Origin: Ktedonobacterales bacterium
GTDB lineage: Bacteria > Chloroflexota > Ktedonobacteria > Ktedonobacterales > JADMIN01
DNA length: 32,000 bases
NCBI GenBank assembly: GCA_030167145.1
Contig: CP126532.1
Coordinates: 4,290,001 to 4,322,000 of the forward strand
Direction: 5' to 3'
Shown one piece after another: positions 9,381 through 32,000 of this stretch. The position numbers and the translations under genes were made by a program. How positions within the stretch are numbered: the first letter of the stretch is position 1; every line of letters begins with the position of its first letter. Under the pieces are notes generated by a model. The model saw only the letters and a list, made by a program, of their open reading frames with translations, was not told the origin of the DNA and ran no database searches.

Positions 9381-9783
9381 GACTGCTGCCCTCCATAAAT
9401 GATTCCGCGCTGCTACGCAATTTTACGTGACTCCACTGTGTACTATGACGATGGAGTGGCGAAGAATCGCGCAGAAAGTAGTAGGATTGGTATGCTTTGC
9501 TGGCTCAGCCCCGCACACCATCCAACCGAATACAACGCGCCAGCCTGTGCAAAAGTTTCCGGGAAGCGACCTTTGGATAGCACACGTGCGCGCATGAGAC
9601 ATTCCGCACGACGCATGCCGACCCGCCAGGATGCCGCATGGAGTAGAACGTTCCAGCGCGTCATCGGTACCGGACTTCTAGGATACACCTACCTGTCACG
9701 CGGGGCTGTGAGCAGATTCACAGCACGCGGGAGTGATGGGCGGTTTGCCGCAGCGTGCGGATGCCGGTACAATGGGCGATGGG

Positions 9784-9843
9784 GCGGGCGGTTGAAACCG
9801 CGCCTGGATGGCGTGCCGCCACGAAACCCGCCTGCGCGGGTTT
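9784..9843 (+). repeat. structured intergenic repeat, family 2 copy (GCGGGCGGTTGAAACCGCGCCTGGATGGC...AAACCCGCCTGCGCGGGTTT)
   Basis: A ~60-nt element that aligns by eye with only a few mismatches to 12859..12917, in the same orientation. It ends in a perfect 8-bp hairpin AAACCCGC-ctgc-GCGGGTTT (9824..9843). Confidence 0.75.
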
Positions 9844-10042
9844 GACAGCGAGCGCGCAACCTGTGTCTTATCATCGCAGCATGGGGGCGATATGTCCGCA
9901 GGCGTTTGTAAATATTCTGTAACGATGGGTGTGGCGCGCAATGAGCGTTTGGTCGGGCGCGGGTGATGGCTACGCCGACGAGTACGATTGGGCAACAATG
10001 ATAGTGGGCGAATGAGTCAGGCGTGAGTAGGCTGGAGTAGGA

Positions 10043-18240: not shown

Positions 18241-19014
18241 ATGAGCACAGCAGCCGGTGAGTATACGCCGCAAGAGTTGATGGTGGTTTGCGCGGCGCGG
18301 CAGATCCGCGACGGCGAGGTGGTGTTCGTGGGGATGCGGCTGCCGCTGATCGCCTTCGCGCTGGCGAAGCGGACGCATGCGCCGACGGCGGTGGGATTGT
18401 TCGAGAATGGGTTGGTGCGCGATACACCATCGCCGGAGTTGCTGCTGACGATGGGGGATGCGCCGAACATCTTGGGGGCGGAGTGGGCGACGCGGACGGT
18501 GGCGCTGATGGGGCTGCTGGCGCAGGGCTGCGCGCAGCTAGGATTCGTGGGTGGCGCGGAGGTGGACCGTTTCGGGAATCTGAATACGTCGTATGTGGGC
18601 AGGCGTGAGCATCCGACGGTGAAGCTGCCGGGGAGCGGTGGGGGCGCGGATATCGCGTCGCTGGCGGGGCGGCTGGCGATCATCATGGCGCATGACCGCA
18701 AGCGTTTCCCGGAGCGGGTGAGCTATGTCACGAGTCCGGGGTATGGCGATGGCGGTGACTGGCGAGAGCGGGTGGGGCTGCCACGCGGGGGTCCGGCGGC
18801 GGTGATTACGACGCTGGCGGTGTTGGGTTTCACGGATGATACGCATGAGATGGAGTTGCGGTCGTGGCATCCGGGGGGCAGTCCTGAGGGTGTGCGGGCG
18901 CAGACGGGGTGGGATCTGCGGGTGGCGGCGGATGCGACGGAGACGCCTGCGCCGACGGCGGATGAGTTGCGTATCATTCGGGAGTGCGACCCGCAGGGGT
19001 TTTGGACGCGGTGA
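18241..19014 (+). CDS. CoA-transferase subunit B
   Basis: The protein begins MSTAAGEYTPQELMVVCAARQIRDGEVVFVGMRLP..., and GNLNTSYVG and LPGSGGGADIA match subunit-B patterns. I chose ATG 18241 (GGGAGGGA upstream) over TTG 18226. Confidence 0.85.
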   Translation: MSTAAGEYTPQELMVVCAARQIRDGEVVFVGMRLPLIAFALAKRTHAPTAVGLFENGLVRDTPSPELLLTMGDAPNILGAEWATRTVALMGLLAQGCAQLGFVGGAEVDRFGNLNTSYVGRREHPTVKLPGSGGGADIASLAGRLAIIMAHDRKRFPERVSYVTSPGYGDGGDWRERVGLPRGGPAAVITTLAVLGFTDDTHEMELRSWHPGGSPEGVRAQTGWDLRVAADATETPAPTADELRIIRECDPQGFWTR

Positions 19015-19101
19015 GATAGCCATGTGGTATGTGGGGAGTTGCATTGCGAGCGGTGGTTGTGGTATGGTTAGACGCGCCGGAAGTGAAAGCTTCCGGCATA
19101 T

Positions 19102-19172
19102 TCCGGGATCGTCTAGTGGTAGGACAGCTGACTCTGGATCAGTCAACCGTGGTTCGAATCCACGTCCCGGAG
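19102..19172 (+). tRNA. tRNA-Gln (anticodon CTG)
   Basis: I folded the cloverleaf by hand. The acceptor stem is TCCGGGA/TCCCGGA, the D arm is GTCTAGTGGTAGGAC, and the anticodon stem GCTGA/TCAGT carries loop CTCTGGA (U33, anticodon CTG, purine 37). The T arm is CGTGG-TTCGAAT-CCACG and the discriminator is G. CCA is not encoded. Confidence 0.9.
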
Positions 19173-19191
19173 CTAATCGAGCAGGTGGCGC

Positions 19192-19218
19192 AAGGCTGGT
19201 GATATGCCAGCCTTTTTT
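19192..19218 (+). terminator. intrinsic terminator after tRNA-Gln
   Basis: The stem AAGGCTGG/CCAGCCTT has a 7-nt loop and runs into a T6 tract (ccagccTTTTTTcg). Confidence 0.75.
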
Positions 19219-19288
19219 CGTACCCGCAAATGTGATGCATGGAGCCGAGAGCGCGAACAGATACCGCACTGAAATCGCGAGAGGTTCG

Positions 19289-20344
19289 ATGGAAATGCAG
19301 CAGGTTCAGCGTCAGGCAACGGTGATGTTTAGTTCGCTCCTCGGTGAGGCTGCTCCGCTGGATTTCCTGGTCGCAGCATCAAAGGATACTGATGCCGAGG
19401 TGCGTAAACTGGTGTGTATTGCCTTGCAAAGTTTAGCACACCGGGCGAATCCTGACTGGCTGATCCCATTGCTTGGGGATCGCGAGGCTGAGGTGCGGCG
19501 TTACGCAGAGGAAGCGCTCATTCCGTATGGCAATCGCGTGCCGCTTGAGGCCGTCCTTCACGCGCTGGTTGAGCGGGGTGTGGATTTCGAAGACCCGCTG
19601 GCCCAGGTGCTAGGGTCGTTCAAGGAGGATTTCCCGCGCAGTGTGTTGGAGCGTCTGGCCGAATCGCAGGGTGAGGTCGCTGCGGTCATTCTCGGCGAAT
19701 TGGGAACTGCGGCCCCAACTGATCTGCTCGATGCGCTGTTGGCAGTCCCATTTAGCGAAAGCACTCGTCCAATGCGATTTGAGGCCCTCTTGGCAGCGAA
19801 GAAGCTGAAAAGCTCACAGCTCGCTCCGAGATTGGCTGCCATCATGCGGGATGAGCAGGACTTCAGTCGTTTCTCCGCTGCGGCTGCTTTGGGTGCGATT
19901 GGAGATCCTGTGTACATGCCGGAGATACTCGCATTGCTCCCGATCGCAAAGCCATTGGATTTCAGCGATGTTGCCGATGGACTGTCGGGCTTTGGCGAGC
20001 AGATGCCGGTTGATGAGATGGTGGAGTTTATCCTGGCCTATCCGTCAGACGGCAACGAGGACATCGGCGACCTGCTTGATGCTCTCCGATTTGCTGGAAA
20101 ACATACGCCGTATGAATTTCTGGTGTCCTATGTTCAAGACGCGGACAGAGATCCAGAAGCGCGAGGGGCTGCGGCAAAGGCCCTCGCATCGTTTGCTGGC
20201 GCGGGCCTGACAACGACGCAACAGTATGATTTCGCACTTCACGTGCTCATTGAATTGCTCCAATCAGAAGGCGATCCTCTGTTTCGTCACTCCGTTGCTT
20301 ACTGCCTTGGCTTAATCAAGGATCCTATTGTACTTGAACCGTAG
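19289..20344 (+). CDS. HEAT-repeat (PBS-lyase-type HEAT-like) protein
   Basis: The protein begins MEMQQVQRQ.... It has repeated D-x-D/E-x-x-VR-x-x-A-x-x-AL-type units (DTDAEVRKLVCIALQSL, DREAEVRRYAEEALIPY, DPEARGAAAKALASF). The 5' part of track ORF 18836..20344 reads through the tRNA and is not coding. The gene ends at TAG 20342-20344. Confidence 0.7.
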   Translation: MEMQQVQRQATVMFSSLLGEAAPLDFLVAASKDTDAEVRKLVCIALQSLAHRANPDWLIPLLGDREAEVRRYAEEALIPYGNRVPLEAVLHALVERGVDFEDPLAQVLGSFKEDFPRSVLERLAESQGEVAAVILGELGTAAPTDLLDALLAVPFSESTRPMRFEALLAAKKLKSSQLAPRLAAIMRDEQDFSRFSAAAALGAIGDPVYMPEILALLPIAKPLDFSDVADGLSGFGEQMPVDEMVEFILAYPSDGNEDIGDLLDALRFAGKHTPYEFLVSYVQDADRDPEARGAAAKALASFAGAGLTTTQQYDFALHVLIELLQSEGDPLFRHSVAYCLGLIKDPIVLEP

Positions 20345-20734
20345 ATGGCGGTTACCTCCGCAAATGATGAAAGTAGTCTGGTTGCAATTCATGCAGCGCA
20401 AGGATTGTATCTTTTGGCGATGGCCGGGGTGCATGCGCCGGTCGAGATGTGGAAAACAGTGCTCGACCACACGTCAGACATGCGGCGCAAATTTGCCATT
20501 CTGGCTCTCGGTAGCCGCGAGGATGCGCCGTCACAATTATTGCTTGACTATTTTGCTGATCCTCATCTCACGGAGTTGGTGCATGAACAACTTCTCCTGC
20601 ATCCGACGTCCAATGTGTTCGACCTGGCTAAGCATCACCTAGCAAATCTTGCCCAGGAGGGCAATGACCAGCTCGGCCCTGCGGCACGCAAAGCGCTGAC
20701 AGTTCTTGAAGGGTCAAGGAACCGTGGTCGCTGA
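20345..20734 (+). CDS. HEAT-repeat-like protein, in the same frame as and directly abutting the preceding HEAT ORF (possible C-terminal half of a TAG-interrupted gene)
   Basis: The ATG immediately follows the TAG of the upstream ORF in the same frame, and no SD is visible. The sequence continues the helical-repeat style (DESSLVAIHAAQGLYLLAMAG, DMRRKFAILALGSRED). Confidence 0.55.
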   Translation: MAVTSANDESSLVAIHAAQGLYLLAMAGVHAPVEMWKTVLDHTSDMRRKFAILALGSREDAPSQLLLDYFADPHLTELVHEQLLLHPTSNVFDLAKHHLANLAQEGNDQLGPAARKALTVLEGSRNRGR

Positions 20735-20836
20735 TAAGATGTACGGAGCGGCGAGCAGCGGGCTATTCAGCTATCATTGCGGATGGGCCGCTAGATGCCG
20801 GAGATCGCAGATTGAGCCAGGTGAGGGGAGGGCAGT

Positions 20837-22201: not shown

Positions 22202-22777
22202 CTAGCAGTCAGAGATGGGGTCGTCGGGGCGGAAGGTGGCCAGGATGCTGTCGTGGGTCTGCTGGACGGATTGAGGCTGGGTGGCGTCGAGGGTGTCGAG
22301 GGTGAAGTTGACGCCTTTGCTATCGAGGAAGGCCCAGGTGCGATGCACGCCTTCACCGACCGAGTATTTCATGGAGATGCCAGCGAGGGTCGTTGGTGTG
22401 CCGGTAAGCTGGCAGATGGATTGTAGCTGCGACTGGGTATAGCCGTATGCCTCGGTGACAGTGACGTTGCCGGGAGATTGCGTGGAGGCGAGGATGACGC
22501 CGCCGCCCATGAGGCCGGTTTGCGCGGGGCTGGTAGTGATGGACCAGCCAGGTGGGTAGGCGATGGTGAAGTGCGCGCCGCTGTAGACTTGCCAGCCGGA
22601 CGGGACGTTGGTGGGGGTGGGCGGCCCTGGAATGGGGGTGGCAGTGGGGGGAAGGGTTGCGGTTGGCTGCGGCGCGCTGGTATTTGTCGGGCCGGCGCCC
22701 GCAGACGCCTGGCCGCATGCGGTGGCAAGGCAGAGCATCAGGGCACAGAGGCCGAGAACGAGCATACGTCGAATCAA
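22202..22777 (-). CDS. hypothetical secreted lipoprotein
   Basis: The signal peptide with lipobox is MIRRMLVLGLCALMLCLATAC, followed by a Pro/Thr linker and then a beta-rich domain (GWQVYSGAHFTIAYPPGWSI...). The start is TTG with GGAGGG 5 nt upstream. Confidence 0.7.
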   Translation of the reverse strand: MIRRMLVLGLCALMLCLATACGQASAGAGPTNTSAPQPTATLPPTATPIPGPPTPTNVPSGWQVYSGAHFTIAYPPGWSITTSPAQTGLMGGGVILASTQSPGNVTVTEAYGYTQSQLQSICQLTGTPTTLAGISMKYSVGEGVHRTWAFLDSKGVNFTLDTLDATQPQSVQQTHDSILATFRPDDPISDC

Positions 22778-22816
22778 GAGATCCCTCCTCGGATGGTGCT
22801 GTGACGCAAATATGTT

Positions 22817-22847
22817 GGGAAGACATCACATGATGCGATGTCTTCCC
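22817..22847 (-). terminator. putative terminator hairpin downstream of the TolB-like/C39-like gene
   Basis: A perfect 11-bp stem GGGAAGACATC/GATGTCTTCCC with a 9-nt loop. On the minus strand it is followed by AACATATTT, a weak U-tract. Confidence 0.55.
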
Positions 22848-22879
22848 GTCAAGAGAATCAACCTGCCGTGAGACGACAA

Positions 22880-24214
22880 TTACTCACAGGGTGAGCCTGT
22901 CCCGGATGCCTTCTGGTAGAGGACCATCACGTTCAGGTAGTCACCAGCGTAGGCGCTCATCTGGACCTGGACGCCATTCCACGGGTCGTTGATGTAGTAG
23001 TTGGCTTCGTTGTGAGAGCCATCGCCGTAGACAACGACGAAGAAGTGCGTCTGGTTGCAGGTGCTGCCATCATAACAGATGCCCACAATCACTGGCCATC
23101 CTGACTTCAGGTAGCTATCGAGGGTGGACCAGGAGAAGCCCGGCCTGCTGATGAAGTTGGTGGTGTACCTATCGCAGCCGGGGCCGTTGGGTGGATTGAC
23201 CTGCGCGCCATACCAGTTGAGGCCATCGGCATAGCCCCACGGACTCAAGCAATTGTTCATGCCACGCGGATCGCCAACGGTCGAGCCGTTGTAGTCGAAG
23301 AGCATGGTCAGTGAAGTGAGCGCACAGCCATAGCCGCCGATGGACTGGTTGGCGGACTTCATCAGGTCGTTGGAGTAGTACTGGTTGTTCTGCGCGTAAA
23401 TCGGAACGTTCCAGCAGCCGGGGCCATAGTAGCACATGGGCTGAACACTATCATGTCCGGGCGTGACGGGGCAGTCGGGCTGAGTTATTGCGCTCGCAGT
23501 GCGCGCACCGGTGGCAAGGGATACCGTCCATTGCGTCTTCGGTGTGTAGGCGCTGTCAAAGAAGGTAATGGATTTACCATCCGCCGACCAGGAGGGCGCT
23601 TTGTTCATGCGGCCTTCGAAGCTGTAGTGGGTGAGGGCGCCACCAGTCATGACGAGACGCTGATTCGTTCCATTGGCGTTCAACACCCAAAGCTGCGGAG
23701 CGAAGGTCGTCAGATTCTCGCGGGCATAGAGGATTTGAGTGCTGTCTGGCGACCAGCGTGGCGCGTGAATCCAGAAGGTATTGCCAAGTTTGGCAATGAC
23801 CTGCTTGCGCAAGGTTCTCAGGTTCACCGTGGTGAAGATGGTATCGCGCATGTCCTCGCCAATGCCGGTGACGTAGAGCAGGGTCGCGCCGTTGGGGGAG
23901 ACGCTTGCCAATTGCGCGAACAAAGGATTGAGGCGCGCGGCGGTATCCGTGGCAACCGTGCGCGTGACGCCGTTCATACTGAGGCGTACCTGAGTGCCAA
24001 CAAAGGTTACTCGTGTTCCCTGAGTGCTGGTGGGCGGGAGGGGATCGCTCAAACCAGATGAATGAGCGTCATGCGGGGCGGCCTGGACGAGCAACGGCCC
24101 ACCAATGGATGCCAGGATAGCGAACATCACCGCGACTCCGATCAGGAGCCGCCGCCGAAGTGGTCTGGGGGACAACGCTTCAGTTTCCAAAGTTGCTTCC
24201 TTCCTGACTAGCAA
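22880..24214 (-). CDS. membrane-anchored fusion protein: TolB-like beta-propeller repeats plus C-terminal C39-like (YvpB / Peptidase_C39_2-type) cysteine peptidase domain
   Basis: There is an N-terminal TM segment (LLIGVAVMFAILASIGGPLLV). TolB/WD40-like repeat signatures are PRWSPDSTQILYA and PSWSADGKSITFF. The C-terminal domain has GGYGCALTSLTMLFDYNG (G-C-x-x-T-S-L-x-M, as around the catalytic Cys of YvpB-type C39-like peptidases), HFFVVVYG and INDPW. The start is TTG at 24214. Confidence 0.75.
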   Translation of the reverse strand: MLVRKEATLETEALSPRPLRRRLLIGVAVMFAILASIGGPLLVQAAPHDAHSSGLSDPLPPTSTQGTRVTFVGTQVRLSMNGVTRTVATDTAARLNPLFAQLASVSPNGATLLYVTGIGEDMRDTIFTTVNLRTLRKQVIAKLGNTFWIHAPRWSPDSTQILYARENLTTFAPQLWVLNANGTNQRLVMTGGALTHYSFEGRMNKAPSWSADGKSITFFDSAYTPKTQWTVSLATGARTASAITQPDCPVTPGHDSVQPMCYYGPGCWNVPIYAQNNQYYSNDLMKSANQSIGGYGCALTSLTMLFDYNGSTVGDPRGMNNCLSPWGYADGLNWYGAQVNPPNGPGCDRYTTNFISRPGFSWSTLDSYLKSGWPVIVGICYDGSTCNQTHFFVVVYGDGSHNEANYYINDPWNGVQVQMSAYAGDYLNVMVLYQKASGTGSPCE

Positions 24215-24243
24215 TCAGCGCAACGTTTGCGCTTCCTTTGAAG

Positions 24244-24272
24244 AGTATAAGAATGGAGTGCCTACTTGTCAA
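24244..24272 (-). promoter_or_regulatory. near-consensus sigma70-type promoter (TTGACA-17-TATACT) for the TolB-like/C39-like gene
   Basis: The minus strand reads TTGACA (24272-24267), a 17-nt spacer, then TATACT (24249-24244), about 30 nt upstream of the start codon. The -35 is embedded between two copies of CAAGTAGGCA. Confidence 0.6.
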
Positions 24273-24490
24273 TGGTTGCCTACTTGGAGGCTTGCCACGT
24301 TGGGAAAATTGGGCATGTAGCGTGGTATGTGGTCGTTTTTTGATGCCGTTAACATAACTTCACAAACTTGCTCAAACATACCAGTAAGGCAGGGTAAGAT
24401 AAGTAGCAAAATACAGGGCTGACACTGAAAGCGGGGAATGCGAAGACGCGCGGGCGCTGGCGGGAGGCGCTGCGTGATACACTGCGACAC

Positions 24491-25963
24491 ATGAGCACTG
24501 AGACACGCGAGACCCTGGAAGCGGGGCAGGATGACAGCCGCGCGGCAGAGGATACCATTGCCGCGATTGCGACGCCGCCCGGAACTGGCGGCATCGGCAT
24601 CGTGCGCGTCAGTGGGCCGGAGGCGTTTCGCATCGGCATGGCGATCTTCCGTGCGGCGGATGCGGTGTATCGCGATGCGCCGCCGCCGTCGCATCTGCTG
24701 ACGTATGGGCATGTGGTGGATGCGGAGACGGGCGAGCGGATTGATGAGGTGTTGGCGGCGTTCATGCGTGCGCCGCGCACATATACGCGCGAGGATGTGG
24801 TGGAGATTTCAGCGCATGGCGGTCCATTGCTGCTGGGGCGCATCCTGCGGCTGGCGCTGGCGGCGGGGGCGCGGGCGGCACGGGCAGGCGAGATGACCCT
24901 GCGGGCGTTTCTCAACGGGAGGCTGGATCTGGCGCAGGCTGAGGCGGTGATGGCGCTGATCAACGCGGAATCGGACGCGGGTCGGCGGCTGGCGTTGCGG
25001 CAGTTGCAGGGGGAGCTGTCGGCACGGATTGGCGAGGCGCGGGCGGCGGCGATGGCCGCGCTGGCGCATATCGAGGCGAGCATAGATTTCCCGGAAGAGG
25101 AGGTGCCACCGCCGGAGCGGGGAGAGCTGGCGGAGTTGGTCGCCGAGGCGCGGGGGACGGTGGATGCGTTGCTGGTGGGTGCAGGGTGGGGGCGGCTGCT
25201 GCGCGAGGGGCTGCGGGTGGCGCTAGTGGGACGGCCGAACGTGGGGAAGTCGAGCTTGCTGAATGCGCTGCTGCGGACGGAGCGCGCTATCGTGACGCCG
25301 ATTCCGGGCACGACGCGGGATACGGTGGAGGAGCGGGCGAGCATCGGCGGGGTGGCGCTGCATCTAGTGGATACGGCTGGCCTGACCGCGACGGATGACC
25401 CCATCGAGCGCATTGGCGTGGAGCGGTCGCGGGCTGCAGCGCGATCCGCTGACCTGCTGCTGTTCCTGCTGGATCGCTCTAGCTCGCTCACGGAGGACGA
25501 CTGGCGCGCGGCGGACGAGGTGCGCGCGCTAGGCGACGCTGCGGATGGTGAGACGGTGGAGGCGACGCCAGTGATTGTGGCGCTGAACAAAGCTGATCTG
25601 CCACCGGCGCTGACGGAGGCGGAGGCGCGGGCGCTGTGGCCAGGGGCGGCGGCGGTGGTGGACACCTCGGCGGTGACAGCGGGGGGAACGGAGGCGCTGG
25701 AACGGGCGGTGACGACGCTGATCGCGGGTGGGCAGGCGCAGGGGGCGGATCCGCTGGTGGCGTCAACGCGGCATGCCGATGCGCTGCGCCGCGCCGACGA
25801 GCATCTGGCCGCCGCGCTGGTGGCGCTGGATGGGGGGATTCCGCTGGAACTGGTGGGGATTGATCTGCGCGCGGCGCTCGACACGCTGGGCGAGATCACT
25901 GGCGAGACGGCGAGCGCGGACCTGCTCGACCGCATCTTCGCAGAGTTCTGCATTGGGAAGTGA
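24491..25963 (+). CDS. mnmE: tRNA uridine-5-carboxymethylaminomethyl modification GTPase MnmE
   Basis: The N-terminus is DTIAAIATPPGTGGIGIVRVSG, the G-domain has GRPNVGKSSLLNAL and DTAG, and the hallmark C-terminus is FCIGK. Confidence 0.95.
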   Translation: MSTETRETLEAGQDDSRAAEDTIAAIATPPGTGGIGIVRVSGPEAFRIGMAIFRAADAVYRDAPPPSHLLTYGHVVDAETGERIDEVLAAFMRAPRTYTREDVVEISAHGGPLLLGRILRLALAAGARAARAGEMTLRAFLNGRLDLAQAEAVMALINAESDAGRRLALRQLQGELSARIGEARAAAMAALAHIEASIDFPEEEVPPPERGELAELVAEARGTVDALLVGAGWGRLLREGLRVALVGRPNVGKSSLLNALLRTERAIVTPIPGTTRDTVEERASIGGVALHLVDTAGLTATDDPIERIGVERSRAAARSADLLLFLLDRSSSLTEDDWRAADEVRALGDAADGETVEATPVIVALNKADLPPALTEAEARALWPGAAAVVDTSAVTAGGTEALERAVTTLIAGGQAQGADPLVASTRHADALRRADEHLAAALVALDGGIPLELVGIDLRAALDTLGEITGETASADLLDRIFAEFCIGK

Positions 25964-27804: not shown

Positions 27805-27855
27805 TTGACAGGAGCGACGTGCGCGGATATTATATCCATATCGGATATATCCATA
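27805..27855 (+). promoter_or_regulatory. consensus-like sigma70 promoter (TTGACA-17-TATTAT) overlapped by two palindromic operator-like sites upstream of the PadR gene
   Basis: TTGACA is at 27805-27810 and TATTAT at 27828-27833, with a 17-nt spacer. Palindrome GGATAT-T-ATATCC (27825-27837) covers the -10. A second palindrome GGATATATCC (27843-27852) sits around the expected transcription start. Both are followed by ATA. Confidence 0.7.
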
Positions 27856-27897
27856 GTGTCTCTATCGGATGTGGGTAGAGTTACGGCGAGGGGAAAC

Positions 27898-28287
27898 ATG
27901 ATGGACGAGAACGCGCGGGAAGCGGAGGCGTTGCTGCCGTTGACGCCTGCGGTGTTCCAGATTCTGCTGGCGCTGGCGGGTGGCGAGCGGCATGGCTACG
28001 GCATCATGCGCGAGATAGCGGAGAATACCGAGGGCAAGATGCGCCTCGGCCCTGGTACGCTGTACCGTTCGATCAAGCAGATGCTAGCGGCGGGGTTGAT
28101 CGAGGAGTCGGATGAGCGGCCTGATCCGGCGCTCGACGACGAGCGGCGGCGCTATTATCGGCTGAGCGGATTCGGCCAGCGTGTGGCGGAGGCGGAGGCG
28201 CGGCGACTGGCGCAGTTGGTGAATACCGCGCGGGCGCGGCGGCTGCTGCCGGAAGTTGGGACCGCGCCGGTTCGGGGAGGCGCGTGA
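27898..28287 (+). CDS. PadR family transcriptional regulator
   Basis: The winged-helix core is LTPAVFQILLALAGGERHGYGIMREIAENTEGKMRLGPGTLYRSIKQMLAAGLIEE...RRYYRLSGFG. The ATG at 27898 has GAGGGG upstream, and the start lies downstream of the mapped promoter. Confidence 0.9.
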   Translation: MMDENAREAEALLPLTPAVFQILLALAGGERHGYGIMREIAENTEGKMRLGPGTLYRSIKQMLAAGLIEESDERPDPALDDERRRYYRLSGFGQRVAEAEARRLAQLVNTARARRLLPEVGTAPVRGGA

Positions 28288-29168
28288 TGGCATCGGTGCC
28301 ACTGAAATGGAGCATCAAAGCCTCGGTGGGTGTTTATCGCGTAGTGCTTTATGTATATCCACCGCGCTTTCGCGCAGCATACGGGCGTGAGATGGCGCAG
28401 GTGTTTCGTGGGTCGTGCCGGGAGGCGGTGGCGCGGCGCGGGCCACCGGGGCTGCTGCCGCTGTGGGGGGCGACGCTGCGGGATCTGGCGGTGACGGCGG
28501 CGCAGGAGTGGGGCGATGCGCTGGGCATTGCGCGGCATCGTAGGCTGCGGATGCGCCCGCGAGCGAGTTATCCAGGGAGGTATGGAATGATGCGACGACG
28601 AAGGCACGGACCGTTTGGGGAACTGTATCGGGCGCTGAAACGCATGAGATCGGGATTCATGTCGCGGCCAGCGATGCGTACCCTGCCAGAGAGCATCACT
28701 CTTGGCCCCGGTATCACGGAAGCGGACCGGCGGAGGACGCGACCGACAGAGCGGGCGCTGATCTTCGCGCGGGACGAAGCGGAGTGGCATCATCATACGC
28801 ACGTGGGCACGGAACATCTGCTGCTAGGGCTGTTGCGCGAGCGCGAAGGGGTGGCGGCGAAGGTGCTGTATGTGCTGGGCGTGGATACGGAGGCGGTGCG
28901 GCGTGATGTGGAGTTCATCATTGGGCGGGGCGAGCGGGAGGTGGTTGGCGAGGCGATTGGTCTGACGCGGCGCGCGAGGCGGGTGCTAGAGCTGGCGGGA
29001 GATGAAATGCGAGCGATGAACGCGCGGTATATCGGTACGGAGCATCTGCTGTTAGGCATGCTGCGCGAGGGTGAGGGCATCGCGGCGGGGGCGCTGAACC
29101 GCGCTGGGGTGCACCTGGACGCGGTGCGCGCGGAGGTGCCGCGGGCGTCCGGCGAGATGGGCGCGTAG
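28287..29168 (+). CDS. Clp N-terminal (Clp R) repeat-domain protein with PadR-associated N-terminal 'prefix'-type domain
   Basis: The start ATG overlaps the PadR stop (gTGATGg). The C-terminal half has two Clp_N repeats (HVGTEHLLLGLLREREGVAAKVLYVLGVDTEAVRRDV and YIGTEHLLLGMLREGEGIAAGALNRAGVHLDAVRAEV). The N-terminal YRVVLYVYPPRFRAAYGREMAQVFRGSCREA resembles the leader domain commonly found on PadR-cotranscribed proteins. Confidence 0.8.
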   Translation: MASVPLKWSIKASVGVYRVVLYVYPPRFRAAYGREMAQVFRGSCREAVARRGPPGLLPLWGATLRDLAVTAAQEWGDALGIARHRRLRMRPRASYPGRYGMMRRRRHGPFGELYRALKRMRSGFMSRPAMRTLPESITLGPGITEADRRRTRPTERALIFARDEAEWHHHTHVGTEHLLLGLLREREGVAAKVLYVLGVDTEAVRRDVEFIIGRGEREVVGEAIGLTRRARRVLELAGDEMRAMNARYIGTEHLLLGMLREGEGIAAGALNRAGVHLDAVRAEVPRASGEMGA

Positions 29169-29319
29169 GGATGCGGTGGGCGAGGCGGTGACGGCCCATT
29201 CGTTGTCGTTCACATCGAAGGGATAGGCTTTGAGTGCACCATTGGTACTCACGCCGCATTCTATCCTACCTACCTCCGAGTCAAGTGTATAACTGCTTCT
29301 AGGGTGGTCATCGAGGGCA

Positions 29320-30033
29320 TTACGAAAACGATCGCACACATGTCGCCGCACGATCAACATATGCTGGCGCGACCCAGCGGGGAGGGCTGCGCTGGATGCA
29401 CACGTGGCCATCAAAGTCGCCGAATACCGCTCGCATCTCACGGGACAACACATGAATCCGCCGACCCGACCGATCCTTCCCATCCTCGCTGATCTGCACC
29501 GCATGCTCCAACAGCCTGCTCGCAGGTGTCCCTTTCACGAGGACAAGACGGTCCCGCTGGTCCGGAAAGACCTTCGGGTGTCTGACATGGAAGTTGGCGC
29601 TGAAAAGCGCCGTGACGGTAACGTCGCCAAGCTGTGTGGCCAAGCCCGCTATAGCCACCTCGAAGTATCCGACAATATAGAGCGCGGGCTTTCTGGCGCA
29701 GTCGTAACCCTGCAGCCCCGCGTAGAACACCAGCAGGTCTCCACCGCTCAGTTCGCGTAGGCGCGCCTTTGGCCGAGTGGGGTCGCCATAGGTGAAGGTT
29801 TCGAACTCTGGGTCTACATGCATGGACTCCTGGCTGATGCGTGCGCGCTGGCCCACAGCAAAGTAGTCCGCAAAAACTCTGCCATGTCTTCCCAGTGTAT
29901 TGCCATATGTGCGGGCGTCGAGGTGCCATCCATCCGGTATCGGGATGAACTCGAACGTATCGTCAGAGAATACCGGGCCGAGTATGCCGCCTGATGCGGT
30001 GTCAACGCCGACCCGTAGGAGTACGACCTTCAT
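29320..30033 (-). CDS. hypothetical protein, Nmad3-like motif pattern (uncharacterised; downstream gene of a coupled pair)
   Basis: The protein begins MKVVLLRVGVDTASGGILGPVFSDDTFEFIPIPDG..., and further motifs are HVDPEF, GGDLLVFYAGL and ALYIVGYFEV. ATG 30033-30031 overlaps the TGA of the upstream gene as ATGA. The 19 extra codons of track ORF 29320..30090 are probably not translated. The family assignment comes from memory of motif patterns only. Confidence 0.7.
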   Translation of the reverse strand: MKVVLLRVGVDTASGGILGPVFSDDTFEFIPIPDGWHLDARTYGNTLGRHGRVFADYFAVGQRARISQESMHVDPEFETFTYGDPTRPKARLRELSGGDLLVFYAGLQGYDCARKPALYIVGYFEVAIAGLATQLGDVTVTALFSANFHVRHPKVFPDQRDRLVLVKGTPASRLLEHAVQISEDGKDRSGRRIHVLSREMRAVFGDFDGHVCIQRSPPRWVAPAYVDRAATCVRSFS

Positions 30034-30860
30034 GGTGTGGCTGCCACTGCCGAGTCGTGAGATCGCTGGAGCAGGTGGCCAAGGCTGCATTTCTTGCTTC
30101 CTATCCCCAGCCGGAATGGAACCCGCACTCGCGGCTCGCTCCAGAGGAAGCTATAGTCTGGGTCTCCCACCAGCAATGCCGGTCGTCGGTGCCTGAAGCC
30201 CACATAGTCGATGTCCTTACGGTACCAATCGTGTTGAAGATGAACGTGGTGGGAACAGGGCGCAACATACTTGTCCGGGTCGTAGGGATCTTTGCAGGAA
30301 GGTTGTGGGCGATACACATCACCGAGTTGATGTCGATCGGCTCGCTTCGCTTGCGCAGCCTCTGGTGCATGCTCAGTCAGCCACTGCCACAGGTTACGCT
30401 GTGACTCGAAGGCGTGCCCAACGCGCATGAGATAGAAGAGATGGTCTCTGCCGTACGCACCTGTCCCAGCCCCCGCGATGCCAGCGATCCACACCCCGTT
30501 CCAGGCGTCGGGATCCTTGCTCGTTCGCATCTGGTGCTTACAGGAGCACAGTGTGATGAGGCCCCCTTGGAAGTTGGGGCCGGATCCCGTTTGCACGAAC
30601 CGCCCATCACGATACATCACGGTCCGTACGATGTAGCAGTAGACGGTACCTTCCATCTCACCGATCCGTTCGTTCAGGCTGCTAAAGTCCAGATTCACGT
30701 TGCCGAACAACGGGCCAGAGATGGGAATCGCCTGGTAGCTAGAATGTCCCCTGCAGGCGGAAGTAGCCATAACCGTATCACCGCCCGTTAGTAGCCAGAG
30801 ACGAGCAGTTGCGAATTCGCGTAACTCCTGCGCTTTAGTTGCAGCCACTTGCTCTAGCAT
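30030..30860 (-). CDS. hypothetical protein, Nmad2-like motif pattern (uncharacterised; upstream gene of a coupled pair)
   Basis: The core is VYCYIVRTVMYRDGRFVQTGSGPNFQGGLITLCSCKHQMR...GVWIAGIAG...HLFYLMRVGHAFES...QLGDVYRPQ...CSHHVHLQHDWYRKDIDYVG...ALLVGDPDYSFLW. The start is ambiguous: ATG 30860, ATG 30770 (GGTGA 7 nt upstream) or ATG 30656 (MEGTVYCY...). The family assignment comes from memory of motif patterns only. Confidence 0.7.
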   Translation of the reverse strand: MLEQVAATKAQELREFATARLWLLTGGDTVMATSACRGHSSYQAIPISGPLFGNVNLDFSSLNERIGEMEGTVYCYIVRTVMYRDGRFVQTGSGPNFQGGLITLCSCKHQMRTSKDPDAWNGVWIAGIAGAGTGAYGRDHLFYLMRVGHAFESQRNLWQWLTEHAPEAAQAKRADRHQLGDVYRPQPSCKDPYDPDKYVAPCSHHVHLQHDWYRKDIDYVGFRHRRPALLVGDPDYSFLWSEPRVRVPFRLGIGSKKCSLGHLLQRSHDSAVAATP

Positions 30861-30953
30861 TGCATTTGCCGTACGCTGACACAGGCGTCCGCAGTGATCA
30901 TATTGGGCTGCATATACTGTATATATAATACATTCAACGGGATAACGACAGTC

Positions 30954-31485
30954 TCACACGTTCGTCACAGGGGCATAGGGCGGTATCTCAGTGTTATCAC
31001 ACGGAGTGGCCCATGGTCTCTGGACCAGTTTCTGACCATCTCGTTCCTGCAGCGTGGCGGCCAGCAGGGTCACCTGCTCCCGGTCCTGAGCATTGGCGGG
31101 GGTGATGTGCAGCACCAAGAGAGATGCCCCAGCGTATCCACGGCGGCATGCACCTTGGACCCCTTGCACCGCTTGTGCCCATCATAGCCCGCCCGCGCGC
31201 CGCTCTCGTGCGTCGACTGTATGGTCCGACTATCGAGGATGGCGGCGCTGGGGCGCGGACCGCGGCCCGCCGCGATGCGCACCGGCAGCCGTAGGTCATG
31301 CACCGCGCTCTCAAAGCTGCCTACTGCCAGCCAGCGCACCGCATTGCAGACCTTGCGCAGGGATTACGGCGCTGCAAGGCGTCTTCGGGCAGCAGGGTCA
31401 GGTAGGGCACGATGAAGGCCCATTTGTCGTCGCTAATGTCGGTCGGATAGGGTTGACGTGTGTCCCCATACCGACATACTACCAC
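30954..31485 (-). mobile_element. decayed IS5-family transposase gene (frameshifted, internally deleted, C-terminally truncated)
   Basis: Three minus-strand fragments lie in different frames. ORF 31321..31614 carries YPTDISDDKWAFIVPYLTLLPEDALQRR, the N-terminal motif of IS5-family transposases. ORF 31070..31339 carries [44 protein letters not shown], the first DDE aspartate region. ORF 30954..31169 carries [17 protein letters not shown], the second aspartate region. No frame reaches the E motif, and I could not identify terminal inverted repeats. Confidence 0.8.
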
Positions 31486-31513
31486 CAACCCGCCCTGACG
31501 TTCATAACACGCG

Positions 31514-32000
31514 CTAGGCGACTTCTTCTGCTGCGTCTGCTGTGGCCGGGACGGCAAGAGATTTGGCTTTGGCGGCCTGGCGCGCGAGCAGGGCGGGCGG
31601 AATGCGATAGACATCGGTGACGAGACCCAGTCGCTCTAGCGCCCAGATGAGATAGCCGGAGAAGTCGAATTGCCACCAGCGGAGGCCGTGGAAAGCGGAG
31701 CGCGGGAAGGCGTGGTGGTTGTTGTGCCAGCCCTCGCCGAATGCCAGCAGCCCGACGACCCACTCGTTGCGGCTGCGGTCCACGGTCTCGAACATGCGGC
31801 GTCCGAAGGTGTGGCAGACGGAGTTGACGCTCCAAGTGACGTGATGGGTGAGGAACATGCGCACCAGCCCGCCCCAGAGGAGGCCAGTCAACGCGCCGGG
31901 CCAGCCGCCGAGCAGACCGCCCACGGCGAAGGGAATAGCGAGCGAGAGCAGCGCCCAGAGCAGGAAGGTGCGGCTGACGAACATGACAATCTTGTCGCTC
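31514..32000 (-). CDS. acyl-CoA/acyl-lipid delta-9-type fatty acid desaturase (C-terminal part; N-terminus beyond the right window edge)
   Basis: NSVCHTFGRRMFETVDRSRNEWVVGLLAFGEGWHNNHHAFPRSA contains the third histidine box (HNNHH) of membrane desaturases. The reading frame stays open upstream of the track's Met 31984 to the window edge (...SDKIVMFVSRTF...). Confidence 0.88.
   Translation of the reverse strand, partial: SDKIVMFVSRTFLLWALLSLAIPFAVGGLLGGWPGALTGLLWGGLVRMFLTHHVTWSVNSVCHTFGRRMFETVDRSRNEWVVGLLAFGEGWHNNHHAFPRSAFHGLRWWQFDFSGYLIWALERLGLVTDVYRIPPALLARQAAKAKSLAVPATADAAEEVA

What the first reader, a model, noticed from the sequence alone, without database searches (positions are those of the whole stretch)
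29320..30860. Translationally coupled pair of uncharacterised proteins (Nmad2-like plus Nmad3-like motif patterns) on a lower-GC, IS-flanked islet: candidate novel nucleic-acid modification or defence module
Seen in sequence:
- Two minus-strand ORFs overlap as ATGA (TGA 30032-30030, ATG 30033-30031), so they form one coupled operon.
- They occupy a ~2.3 kb stretch (about 29170-31513) that is visibly less GC-rich than its flanks.
- That stretch is wedged between a converging Clp_N gene and a decayed IS5 transposase that abuts the stop codon of a desaturase gene. This is the classic look of acquired accessory cargo.
- Neither protein has a signal peptide, a TM segment, a P-loop or any catalytic motif I can name.
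- The upstream protein has GSGPNFQGGLITLCSCKHQMR, HLFYLMRVG, GDVYRPQ, and a Cys/His-rich stretch (CKDPYDPDKYVAPCSHHVH) that could bind metal.
- The downstream protein has RVGVDTASGGILGPVF-x-DDTFEFIPIP, HVDPEF, GDLLVFYAG and LYIVGYFEV.

From memory, these patterns resemble the computationally defined 'nucleotide-modification-associated domain' families. Nmad2 has the pattern YGFAPNPF..CTLA.CKP.IR...GD.I.G....L.YAMRV. Nmad3 has the pattern R.G.D...GG...P.F.DG.F...PIP...H.DP...GDLF.F. Neither family has an established biochemical activity.

Inference: this is a minimal two-gene cassette acting on nucleic acids or nucleotides, in modification, modified-base recognition or anti-phage defence, with none of the partner enzymes usually needed to explain function.
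Basis: partly seen in the sequence, partly recalled or inferred. Interest (0 to 1): 0.75.

Follow-up and report, generated by a model that had tools for sequence, protein, structure and literature searches.

The report
Coupled Nmad2–Nmad3 gene pair, function unknown
Two overlapping genes in a soil Chloroflexota genome belong to two uncharacterised protein families that almost always occur together, look like readers of chemically modified DNA or RNA bases, and are a good candidate for a small mobile defence or nucleic-acid-processing module, though nobody has tested what they do.

Summary
Two minus-strand genes (30030-30860, probably starting at 30770; and 29320-30033) overlap as ATGA. They sit in a GC dip next to a decayed IS5-type transposase.

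- **Family assignment.** The downstream protein is a clear Pfam Nmad3 (97.5 bits, cutoff 27). The upstream protein is a divergent long-form Nmad2. It scores below the Pfam cutoff (19.4 vs 26.1), but profile comparison links it to canonical Nmad2 (98%, E 3e-13).
- **Purifying selection.** Both genes have dN/dS of 0.14-0.22.
- **Pairing.** In 80 genomes from more than ten phyla and Archaea, 76 carry a partner gene beside Nmad3, usually overlapping its start. No third gene is conserved. Natural single-chain fusions with three partner families exist.
- **Variable partner.** Nmad3 is constant. The partner is Nmad2 in 54 loci or one of three families without Pfam matches in 22.
- **Fold.** AlphaFold models weakly but consistently resemble PUA-superfamily modified-base readers: EVE/McrB-N/YTH for Nmad3 and ASCH for Nmad2.
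- **Context.** Neighbourhoods are mixed but include Wadjet, Mrr, pAgo and DISARM. Nmad2 also occurs in a validated E. coli anti-phage system.

The chemistry and biological role remain inferred. This is a new member of a known but uncharacterised kind.

The parts
30030..30860 (-). Upstream gene ('ORF-A'), a divergent long-form Nmad2-family protein. The longest ORF is 276 aa. The likely true start is ATG 30770 (246 aa).
   Evidence: The Pfam Nmad2 hit is weak (E 8e-4, 19.4 bits, below the 26.1 cutoff). There are 227 homologues, many of which carry a precomputed PF18753 annotation. hhalign gives 98% to canonical Nmad2 partners and 90.8% to the E. coli DS-4 Nmad2. Invariant residues include Q90, P95, N96, Q98, G99, T103, C105, C107, K108, R112, D181, H205, H207 and D216. 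The AF2 model has pLDDT 82.6, and its top fold hits are ASCH proteins, weakly. dN/dS is 0.19-0.22.
29320..30033 (-). Downstream gene, an Nmad3-family protein of 237 aa. This is the constant component of the pair.
   Evidence: Pfam Nmad3 hits at E 1.3e-27, 97.5 bits, cutoff 27. There are 2259 homologues; the best 120 are 57-80% identical, and genome homologues in other phyla are 51-64% identical, in 1111 clusters at 50% identity. There are 64 invariant columns, including D11, G15, G16, E28, D39, R41, H72, D74, E76, D84, K89, H149, H152, K167, R215 and R219. The AF2 model has pLDDT 77.3, and its top fold hits are EVE-domain proteins, McrB-N and THYN1 bound to 5mC DNA, and YTH domains. dN/dS is 0.14-0.19.
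30030..30033 (-). ATGA stop/start overlap that couples the two genes.
   Evidence: The overlap was read directly. The same junction is present in the close relatives L085 and L087. Across genomes, 58 of 63 measured partner/Nmad3 junctions overlap, and 23 of them by 4 nt.
30861..30960 (-). AT-rich upstream spacer (46% GC). It is the probable promoter region of the pair, but this is not demonstrated.
   Evidence: The composition is and the sequence. The sigma-70 consensus scan found no qualifying site on the minus strand, so the promoter role is inference only.
29329..29356 (-). Terminator-like hairpin followed by a T-run, overlapping the last codons of the Nmad3 gene.
   Evidence: This is a consensus scan match. 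Three such sites were found against 0.8 expected, so the evidence is weak.
30961..31513 (-). Decayed IS5-type transposase remnant that bounds the cassette on its upstream side. It is context, not part of the module.
   Evidence: ORF 31070-31339 matches DDE_Tnp_1 profile positions 3-48 of 200 (E 7e-7). The reading frame is broken into several short ORFs.

Best explanation
The locus is a horizontally acquired two-gene operon. Its products act together as one complex: a conserved Nmad3 subunit plus an exchangeable partner, here a long-form Nmad2.

Both subunits appear to be built on PUA-superfamily beta-barrels, the fold used by EVE, YTH, ASCH and McrB-N domains to hold a flipped-out or free modified base.

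The most likely mode of action is that the complex recognises a modified base or nucleotide in DNA, RNA or the nucleotide pool and processes it chemically. Nmad3 would supply the conserved catalytic core, with its invariant Asp/Glu/His/Lys/Arg constellation. The partner would supply substrate selection or a second catalytic step, through its invariant C-x-C-K...R motif and, in this subfamily, H-x-H, which may form a Zn site.

I think the biological role is most likely conflict-related: sensing or attacking foreign nucleic acid, or responding to infection.

- **Shown:** the family membership, the obligate pairing and fusions, the purifying selection, and the sporadic cross-phylum distribution.
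- **Inferred:** the fold assignment (weak scores), ligand binding, catalysis, and the defence role.
For: **Pairing**
- 76 of 80 genomes carry a partner gene beside Nmad3. In 66 it lies immediately upstream on the same strand.
- 58 of 63 measured junctions overlap.
- Natural fusions exist in both orders: Nmad3-Nmad2 (P0323, P0347, P0372, P0374, P0325), fam2-Nmad3 (P0310) and Nmad3-fam1 (P0340).
- No third gene is conserved.

**Fold**
- For Nmad3, the nine best PDB matches are all EVE, McrB-N or THYN1 structures, and YTH domains follow. The best is E 1.8e-3, probability 0.99.
- For ORF-A, the top matches are ASCH proteins (EOLA1, ZmASCH, TRIP4) and McrB-N. The top named BFVD hits are also ASCH proteins.

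**Catalysis**
- Nmad3 has 64 invariant columns rich in D, E, H, K and R.
- The partner family has invariant C105, C107, K108, R112, H205 and H207.

**Accessory and mobile character**
- The 80 best genome relatives (of 424 confirmed) span Acidobacteriota, Planctomycetota, Chloroflexota, Proteobacteria, Actinomycetota, Verrucomicrobiota and Methanothrix, at 51-64% identity.
- The cassette shows a GC and GC3 dip and has an adjacent IS remnant.

**Defence link**
- In Paraburkholderia monticola the pair lies directly after the Wadjet genes jetC and jetD.
- On Cupriavidus necator pHG1 it lies beside an Mrr-type endonuclease and ParDE.
- pAgo, DISARM, Hma and methyltransferase genes occur among the neighbours in MAG loci.
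- Nmad2 is a component of the experimentally validated E. coli anti-phage system DS-4/NTTI (PMC13092281), and ORF-A's family aligns to that protein.
- The pair is absent from phage genomes and from IMG/VR contigs.
Against: - The most conserved stretch of Nmad3 (residues 11-41) is modelled with pLDDT below 50, so no pocket could be inspected.
- No PADLOC model matches either protein.
- The neighbourhood census is mixed and includes SAM synthetase, RecR, NucS and metabolic genes. I could not compute a background-corrected enrichment.
- In this window itself the neighbours are housekeeping-type genes: Clp_N/PadR, a pseudouridine synthase, MnmE, a desaturase and aconitase.
- No nuclease, NTPase, TIR or other recognised effector domain is present.
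Confidence: 0.4

Rival explanations
1. The pair is a nucleoside or nucleotide salvage (or sanitation) enzyme. It would bind a free modified nucleoside or nucleotide released by RNA or DNA turnover and remove the modification, in the way ASCH-fold amidohydrolases deacetylate N4-acetylcytidine.
For: The best PDB match of ORF-A is EOLA1. A 2026 preprint reports EOLA1 as a deacetylase of free N4-acetylcytidine acting in salvage (bioRxiv 10.64898/2026.08.01.741249, listed). No effector or toxin domain is present. Many neighbours are metabolic genes, and the window's own context is housekeeping.
Against: The fold match is weak (E 0.02, probability 0.30). The sporadic, cross-phylum, HGT-like distribution, at about 0.2% of species genomes, is unusual for salvage. 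The exchange of the partner among unrelated families and the adjacency to Wadjet, Mrr and pAgo in several genomes fit conflict systems better.
Confidence: 0.2
2. The pair is a writer rather than a reader. It would install or remodel a base modification on the host's own DNA or RNA, an epigenetic or protective mark, as the family name 'nucleotide modification associated' implies.
For: Nmad families were named for their association with base-hypermodification genes. In DS-4/NTTI, Nmad2 sits with a thymidylate-synthase homologue, a kinase and a 5-hmdU-kinase-like protein. Three of 36 loci have an adjacent SAM synthetase. The invariant Cys pair is compatible with pyrimidine C6 attack chemistry (inference).
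Against: No methyltransferase, glycosyltransferase, kinase, cofactor-binding domain or precursor-synthesis gene is conserved with the pair. PUA-like domains are typically readers. The pair is absent from phages, which is where hypermodification pathways are concentrated.
Confidence: 0.2
3. The pair is a toxin-antitoxin-type addiction module. One protein would be a toxin acting on nucleic acid, and its overlapping-gene partner would neutralise it.
For: The organisation is a small, translationally coupled two-gene unit. The pair is mobile and sporadic. It lies next to ParDE on pHG1. EVE and ASCH proteins have been proposed as TA components (PMC7641849).
Against: Both proteins are large for TA components (about 240 aa each). 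Both are highly conserved, and they occur as stable single-chain fusions in either order, which is atypical for toxin/antitoxin pairs. No known toxin or antitoxin domain or DNA-binding domain was detected.
Confidence: 0.1
4. The ORFs are decaying remnants carried in with the IS element and have no current function.
For: An adjacent decayed transposase and a GC dip are present. JGI's gene caller missed the upstream gene.
Against: Both reading frames are intact. dN/dS is 0.14-0.22, the ATGA junction is conserved in relatives, and all family-invariant residues are retained.
Confidence: 0.02

Closest known systems
Pfam Nmad3 (PF18754) with Nmad2 (PF18753): computationally defined 'nucleotide modification associated' domains
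   Same: The downstream protein passes the Nmad3 cutoff. The upstream protein is a remote but demonstrable Nmad2 homologue. Pairing of the two families is the rule across genomes, and the two are found fused.
   Different: The upstream protein belongs to a long-form subfamily. It has a 9-residue insertion in the N-terminal core and a C-terminal extension of about 90 aa carrying the invariant GD-Y-P, H-x-H and D motifs, and it scores below the Pfam cutoff. Neither family has a known activity.
E. coli DS-4 / 'NTTI' anti-phage system (DefensePredictor, PMC13092281)
   Same: It contains an Nmad2 protein (WP_047174762.1) that aligns to ORF-A's family over the APN...C-x-x-x-C-K...R / GDWI-G / L-x-M-K-V core (hhalign 90.8%, E 1.2e-6). 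The system was validated against phage.
   Different: DS-4 has five genes: a thymidylate-synthase homologue, an adenylate/dNMP kinase, a 5-hmdU-kinase-like protein, a TIR protein and Nmad2. None of the records I searched for it mentions Nmad3. The window's cassette has Nmad3 and none of the other four.
EVE / ASCH / YTH / McrB-N modified-base readers of the PUA superfamily, including operons that pair EVE and ASCH proteins (PMC7641849)
   Same: The predicted folds of both proteins find these domains as their best matches. Co-occurrence of an EVE protein with an ASCH protein in conflict-related operons has been described.
   Different: The similarity is at fold level only and is weak. There is no sequence-level match to Pfam EVE, ASCH or YTH. 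Known EVE/ASCH operons include an obvious effector such as GNAT, PIN, HNH or type I R-M, whereas here the two proteins stand alone.
Type IV (modification-dependent) restriction enzymes with a PUA-like sensor
   Same: Both involve a possible modified-base sensor on a PUA-like scaffold, a sporadic mobile distribution, and occasional adjacency to other restriction genes.
   Different: No HNH, PD-(D/E)xK, GTPase or other nuclease or motor domain was detected in either protein.

Membership tests
Pfam Nmad3 (PF18754) | Whole-protein score above the curated gathering cutoff (27 bits) | tested here: met
   The score is 97.5 bits, E 1.3e-27, covering residues 2-190 against profile positions 1-201 of 247.
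   All are present and invariant or nearly so in 24 aligned homologues: R7, D11, G15, G16, P20, F22, D24, F27, I32, H72, D74, P75, E76, G98, F103.
Pfam Nmad2 (PF18753) | Whole-protein score above the curated gathering cutoff (26.1 bits) | tested here: not met
   The score is 19.4 bits, E 8e-4, covering only profile positions 12-67 of 200. The Paraburkholderia orthologue of the same subfamily scores 28.1 bits, and many 45-50% identical homologues carry a precomputed PF18753 annotation.
Pfam Nmad2 (PF18753) | Homology to bona fide Nmad2 proteins by profile comparison, and the core motif (A/G)PN...C-x-x-x-C-K...R, W-I-x-G, L-x-Y-x-M-R-V | tested here: met
   hhalign of the long-form subfamily against canonical Nmad2 partners gives 98%, E 2.9e-13 over 104 columns. 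The comparison with E. coli WP_047174762.1 gives 90.8%, E 1.2e-6. The motif residues are invariant.
Nmad2-Nmad3 two-gene module | The two genes are adjacent on the same strand and recur across genomes | tested here: met
   76 of 80 loci carry a partner, and in 54 it is of the Nmad2 family. 58 of 63 junctions overlap, and fusions exist.
PUA superfamily (EVE-like for Nmad3, ASCH-like for ORF-A) | A five- or six-stranded pseudo-barrel superimposable on EVE/ASCH structures with significant scores | tested here: inconclusive
PUA superfamily (EVE-like for Nmad3, ASCH-like for ORF-A) | An aromatic or acidic pocket that binds a flipped modified base | not testable with these tools
Known anti-phage defence systems (PADLOC-DB v2) | A match to any defence-protein model | tested here: not met
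   Neither protein matches any family at E <= 1.
E. coli DS-4 / NTTI system | Presence of the thymidylate-synthase homologue, kinase, 5-hmdU-kinase-like and TIR genes together with Nmad2 | tested here: not met
   No third gene family is conserved within 6 kb of Nmad3 in 80 loci. The window's neighbours are Clp_N, PadR, an IS remnant and a desaturase.
Type IV modification-dependent restriction enzymes | A nuclease (HNH, PD-(D/E)xK) or GTPase/ATPase motor coupled to the reader domain | tested here: not met
   Pfam, NCBIfam and PADLOC show no such domain.

The most novel reading that the evidence does not exclude
Nmad3 together with an interchangeable partner (Nmad2 or one of at least three families with no Pfam match) would be a self-contained, widespread two-protein system built only from PUA-like folds. 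In it, an EVE-like protein has become an enzyme rather than a passive reader. The system would detect a modified base or nucleotide and itself carry out the response, whether immune or DNA/RNA-editing, with no classical nuclease, NTPase or signalling effector. That would be a new mechanistic class of prokaryotic conflict system and would give the first activity for two orphan Pfam families.
Probability: 0.3. Interest if true: 0.75.

Novelty: new member of a known kind. Interest (0 to 1): 0.55.

Why it matters
Nmad2 and Nmad3 are sizeable orphan families. Nmad3 alone has 1111 clusters at 50% identity, and the 80 best of its 424 confirmed genome relatives span more than ten phyla and Archaea. 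No biochemical activity is known for either.

This work shows three things:
1. The two families form an obligate pair and also occur fused.
2. The partner position is modular.
3. Both probably use a modified-base-reader fold.

A component of the same family has just been found in a validated anti-phage system. The pair also exists in cultivable, genetically tractable hosts: Cupriavidus necator H16 megaplasmid pHG1 and Paraburkholderia monticola JC2948. The question 'what do Nmad proteins do?' is therefore directly testable with two genes.

If the pair turns out to be an autonomous sensor-plus-enzyme for modified nucleotides, it would add a new mechanism to prokaryotic immunity or nucleic-acid modification biology, and possibly a new reagent for detecting modified bases.

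Tried and rejected
**Database searches with no result**
- PADLOC and NCBIfam searches of both proteins found nothing.
- PHROGs gave only one unannotated family, for Nmad3.
- Profile searches of PDB sequences found nothing meaningful for Nmad3, ORF-A or the three alternative partner families.
- tblastn against 50,697 phage genomes and a motif scan of IMG/VR found no hits. Plasmids gave only distant hits at 30-37% identity.

**Homology hypotheses rejected**
- Nmad3 and Nmad2 are not paralogues of each other: hhalign probability 0.2%.
- The alternative partner families fam1-3 are not detectably homologous to Nmad2 or to one another: hhalign probability at most 2%. Only 1 of 22 such proteins hits Pfam Nmad2. 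A shared short motif seen by eye (strand, D/N-P, G-x-F-G or C-T, C-x-C) remains a lead only.
- No conserved third gene exists, either within 6 kb in 80 loci or downstream of the closest relatives.

**Tools and sources unavailable**
- The paper that presumably defined the Nmad domains (Iyer et al. 2013, NAR) is not held. No held paper mentions Nmad2 or Nmad3 in its main text in this sense.

**Artefacts and negative scans**
- P0289, a 1593-aa 'hit' with 28 matching stretches, is the translation of a perfect tandem repeat, so I discarded it as an artefact.
- The sigma-70 promoter scan found no convincing minus-strand promoter.
Full report
**1. What is in the sequence**

On the minus strand, ORF 30030-30860 (276 aa) and ORF 29320-30033 (237 aa, counted from the internal ATG at 30033) overlap by four bases. 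ATG 30033-30031 and TGA 30032-30030 form an ATGA junction.

The surroundings are as described:
- A PadR/Clp_N gene pair converges from the left: Clp_N at 28284-29168, E 5.8e-30.
- To the right lies a broken transposase. ORF 31070-31339 matches DDE_Tnp_1 profile positions 3-48 of 200, E 7e-7.
- The transposase remnant ends at the stop of a fatty-acid desaturase gene at 31514.

The cassette is less GC-rich than its surroundings. It is 57.7% GC over 29170-31000, against a window mean of 63.9% (sd 2.8), which puts it in the lowest 2.8% of same-length windows. GC3 is 66-67%, against 74-83% in neighbouring genes.

Three corrections are needed:
1. The IS remnant itself is at average GC.
2. The IS remnant lies on one side only.
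3. The upstream gene most likely starts at ATG 30770 (246 aa). Conservation among 30 homologues begins near residue 42, most homologues are about 225-250 aa (range about 215-290), NCBI annotates 246 aa, and a GGTGA lies about 9 nt upstream of that ATG.

The window comes from a Ktedonobacterales (Chloroflexota) metagenome-assembled genome, locus tags OJF49_004155 and OJF49_004156.

**2. The genes are real and under selection**

The downstream protein has 2259 database homologues and the upstream one 227. Two relatives from other metagenomes (L085 and L087; 74-79% and 58-83% amino-acid identity) keep both genes and the same ATGA junction. Nei-Gojobori dN/dS is 0.19-0.22 for the upstream gene and 0.14-0.19 for the downstream gene. 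This excludes pseudogene decay.

**3. Family assignment**

The downstream protein is an unambiguous Pfam Nmad3 (PF18754; E 1.3e-27, 97.5 bits against a cutoff of 27).

The upstream protein hits Pfam Nmad2 (PF18753) only below the cutoff, at 19.4 bits against 26.1. On the strict Pfam criterion it therefore fails. Homology is nevertheless demonstrable:
- Many of its 45-50% identical homologues carry PF18753.
- An orthologue in Paraburkholderia monticola scores 28.1 bits.
- A profile of its subfamily aligns to the canonical roughly 200-aa Nmad2 proteins found beside Nmad3 in other genomes with 98% probability (E 2.9e-13, 104 columns). Those proteins score up to E 6.8e-59 on Pfam Nmad2.
- It aligns to the E. 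coli Nmad2 protein WP_047174762.1 with 90.8% probability (E 1.2e-6).

It is therefore a divergent long-form Nmad2. Compared with the canonical form it has a 9-residue insertion in the N-terminal core and a C-terminal extension. Family-invariant residues include P95, N96, Q98, G99, T103, C105, C107, K108, R112, W124, G180, D181, Y183, P185, H205, H207 and D216.

H205 and H207 are invariant, C202 is common, and C191 is not conserved. A Zn site made of C105, C107, H205 and H207 is possible, but this is inference only.

PADLOC, NCBIfam and PDB sequence searches gave nothing. PHROGs gave one family of unknown function, for Nmad3.

**4. The pair is the unit, and the partner is exchangeable**

A motif scan of one genome per species (185,579 species) confirmed 424 Nmad3 loci, which is a lower bound. 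I analysed the best 80. They come from Acidobacteriota, Planctomycetota, Chloroflexota, Proteobacteria (including cultured Paraburkholderia monticola and Smithella), Actinomycetota, Verrucomicrobiota, Lentisphaerota, Dormibacterota and the archaeon Methanothrix. They are 51-64% identical to the window's protein. That is a sporadic, HGT-like pattern with strong sequence conservation: 64 invariant columns in 24 aligned sequences.

Using HMMs of the upstream ORFs, 76 of 80 loci carry a partner gene beside Nmad3:

| Arrangement | Loci |
|---|---|
| Immediately upstream, same strand | 66 |
| Immediately downstream | 4 |
| Nearby, or read through in one ORF | 6 |
| No partner found (two of these contigs end close to the Nmad3 gene) | 4 |

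In 58 of 63 measured junctions the partner's stop overlaps the Nmad3 start. The overlap is 4 nt in 23 loci, 19 nt in 17, 10 nt in 11 and 1 nt in 5.

The partner is not always Nmad2:

| Partner family | Loci | Typical motif |
|---|---|---|
| Nmad2 (canonical or long form) | 54 | see section 3 |
| fam1 | 10 | IYKRTH-GDP...G-FG-x-x-CMG |
| fam2 | 7 | GRLH-F-YHSPSS...AENYC |
| fam3 | 5 | VLRRP...MRTDP-x-x-EFGSFGCT-CH |

These three families have no Pfam match, no PDB match and no significant profile similarity to Nmad2 or to each other. No third gene family recurs within 6 kb, and the genes downstream of the closest relatives are unrelated to one another.

An exhaustive search of 1.84 billion representative proteins found 1111 Nmad3 clusters. 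Among them are natural single-chain fusions:
- Nmad3-Nmad2: P0323, P0347, P0372, P0374 and P0325.
- fam2-Nmad3: P0310.
- Nmad3-fam1: P0340.

Fusion in either order, with three different partner families, is strong evidence that Nmad3 and its partner act as one physical unit and that the partner families are functionally analogous.

**5. Structure-based clues**

The AlphaFold2 models are of moderate to good quality. Nmad3 has pLDDT 77.3 and pTM 0.79. ORF-A has pLDDT 82.6 and pTM 0.80.

For Nmad3, the nine best Foldseek matches in the PDB are all PUA-superfamily EVE-type readers: 2g2x, 2eve, PH1033, MJECL36, human THYN1 bound to 5mC DNA, and the McrB N-terminal domain bound to m5C DNA. YTH domains (m6A readers) follow. 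The best match is E 1.8e-3, probability 0.99, TM 0.33/0.47.

For ORF-A, the top matches are ASCH proteins (EOLA1, Zymomonas ASCH, TRIP4) and an McrB N-domain. The best is E 0.02, probability 0.30. The top named hits in the viral structure library are also ASCH proteins.

The most conserved segment of Nmad3 (residues 11-41, VGVDxxSGGxxGPxFxDxxFEFIPIPD) is modelled with pLDDT below 50. A reasonable inference is that it becomes ordered only in the complex or on a ligand.

Nmad3's invariant set is unusually rich in potential catalytic residues: D11, E28, D39, R41, H72, D74, E76, D84, K89, H149, H152, K167, R215 and R219. This argues for an enzyme rather than a passive reader.

**6. Biological context**

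In this genome the neighbours are ordinary: PadR/Clp_N, a pseudouridine synthase, MnmE, a desaturase and aconitase. Elsewhere the context varies.

I ran a census of the two nearest genes on each side in 36 loci, 144 proteins in all. It gave single-locus PADLOC hits to pAgo, DISARM DrmB/DrmC, HmaB, type II methyltransferases, PD-T4-3, mad2 and candidate systems. It also gave SAM synthetase (3 loci), NucS (3), RecR (2) and many metabolic genes. I could not compute a background-corrected enrichment, so this is suggestive only.

In both cultured hosts whose neighbourhood I examined, the pair lies beside defence genes:
- In Paraburkholderia monticola JC2948 it directly follows the Wadjet genes jetC and jetD.
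- On Cupriavidus necator H16 megaplasmid pHG1, a fam1 gene not listed in the plasmid gene table plus a distant Nmad3 lie between ParDE and an Mrr-type restriction endonuclease, with helicases and ATPases nearby.

The pair is absent from 50,697 phage genomes and from IMG/VR, so it is a cellular module rather than a phage one.

In the literature, the DefensePredictor study (PMC13092281) validated an E. coli anti-phage system, DS-4/'NTTI'. It is composed of a thymidylate-synthase homologue, a kinase, a 5-hmdU-kinase-like protein, a TIR protein and an Nmad2 protein. The same study lists another predicted defence system containing an NMAD domain. Earlier comparative work noted that EVE and ASCH proteins co-occur in conflict-type operons (PMC7641849). 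A 2026 preprint shows a PUA-like domain sensing m6-dAMP as an infection signal.

**7. Most likely mechanism and its rivals**

I consider it established (about 0.9) that the two genes encode subunits of one complex. I consider it likely (about 0.5) that the complex binds a modified base or nucleotide through PUA-like pockets.

My best single account (0.4) has three parts:
- The cassette is a horizontally acquired, conflict-related module.
- Nmad3 is the conserved catalytic core.
- The exchangeable partner sets substrate choice or adds a second step.

Rivals:
- **A salvage or sanitation enzyme for modified nucleosides (0.2).** It is supported by the EOLA1/ASCH resemblance and the absence of an effector. 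It is weakened by the phyletic pattern and the partner swapping.
- **A writer of a host modification (0.2).** It is supported by the family's associations. It is weakened by the lack of any cofactor or precursor genes.
- **A toxin-antitoxin pair (0.1).** It is weakened by the stable fusions and the size of the proteins.
- **Decay (0.02).** It is refuted by the selection analysis.

**8. Novelty and verdict**

The families are already in Pfam, and one of them now has a link to defence. The locus is therefore a new, divergent member of a known but biochemically uncharacterised kind, not a new kind.

This analysis adds five things:
- Quantified obligate pairing.
- Fusions in both orders.
- A modular partner position that includes three families with no Pfam match.
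- A consistent though weak PUA/EVE/ASCH fold signal for both subunits.
- Cultivable hosts in which to test function.

Interest is moderate (0.55). The module is compact, widespread and experimentally approachable, and it could reveal a new enzyme built on a reader scaffold. Nothing here yet demonstrates a function.

Noticed in passing
window 30030-30860 (= L001 about 9630-10004): JGI's annotation of this contig does not call the upstream Nmad2-like gene. Instead it calls a 115-aa antisense ORF and a 32-aa ORF. NCBI (246 aa) and the Logan assembly (276 aa) do call it. Surveys based on JGI gene calls would miss the pairing here.
   Followed up: partly
L083 7498-8022 (Cupriavidus necator H16 pHG1, NC_005241.1 about 185582-186106): A 174-aa ORF of partner family fam1 overlaps the start of the annotated Nmad3-like gene H16_RS35360 but is not in the PLSDB gene table. 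The pair sits between ParDE and an Mrr_cat/Zn-ribbon restriction endonuclease, with helicases and ATPases nearby, which looks like a defence island on the megaplasmid.
   Followed up: partly
L065 3646-10714 (Paraburkholderia monticola JC2948, NZ_LRBG01000004.1): The long-form Nmad2 plus Nmad3 pair lies directly downstream of the Wadjet genes jetC (SbcC-like, 1117 aa) and jetD (417 aa). An unassigned 214-aa ORF (8381-9025) lies in between.
   Followed up: partly
L005, L012, L039 and related loci; P0310, P0340: Three protein families sit in the Nmad2 position upstream of Nmad3 and are also found fused to Nmad3: fam1 'IYKRTHxGDP..GxFG..CMG', fam2 'GRLHFFYHSPSS..AENYC' and fam3 'VLRRP..MRTDP..EFGSFGCTxCH'. 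They have no Pfam or PDB match and look like undescribed families.
   Followed up: partly
L008, L024, L028, L055; L014: In a minority of genomes the Nmad2 gene lies immediately downstream of Nmad3, the same order as in the fusion proteins. In L014 it lies on the opposite strand. Gene order within the pair is therefore not fixed.
   Followed up: no
window about 18800-20800 and about 22700-24500: Two other stretches of the window are as GC-poor as the Nmad cassette (55.8-57%). By the JGI annotation of the same contig they correspond to a HEAT-repeat protein region and a PD40/Peptidase_C39_2 gene region. The GC dip at the cassette is therefore not unique in this window.
   Followed up: no
P0289 (representative-library hit): A 1593-aa 'protein' made of about 28 perfect copies of a roughly 55-residue unit matched Nmad3 profile positions 15-44 with a summed E of 1e-53. 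It is the translation of a tandem DNA repeat, so it is a spurious hit and a caution about repeat-inflated scores.
   Followed up: yes
window 27805-29168: The PadR-family regulator gene (27805-28287) and the following 294-aa gene, whose C-terminal half carries two Clp_N repeats (28284-29168), overlap by 4 nt. This suggests a second translationally coupled pair that converges on the Nmad cassette.
   Followed up: no
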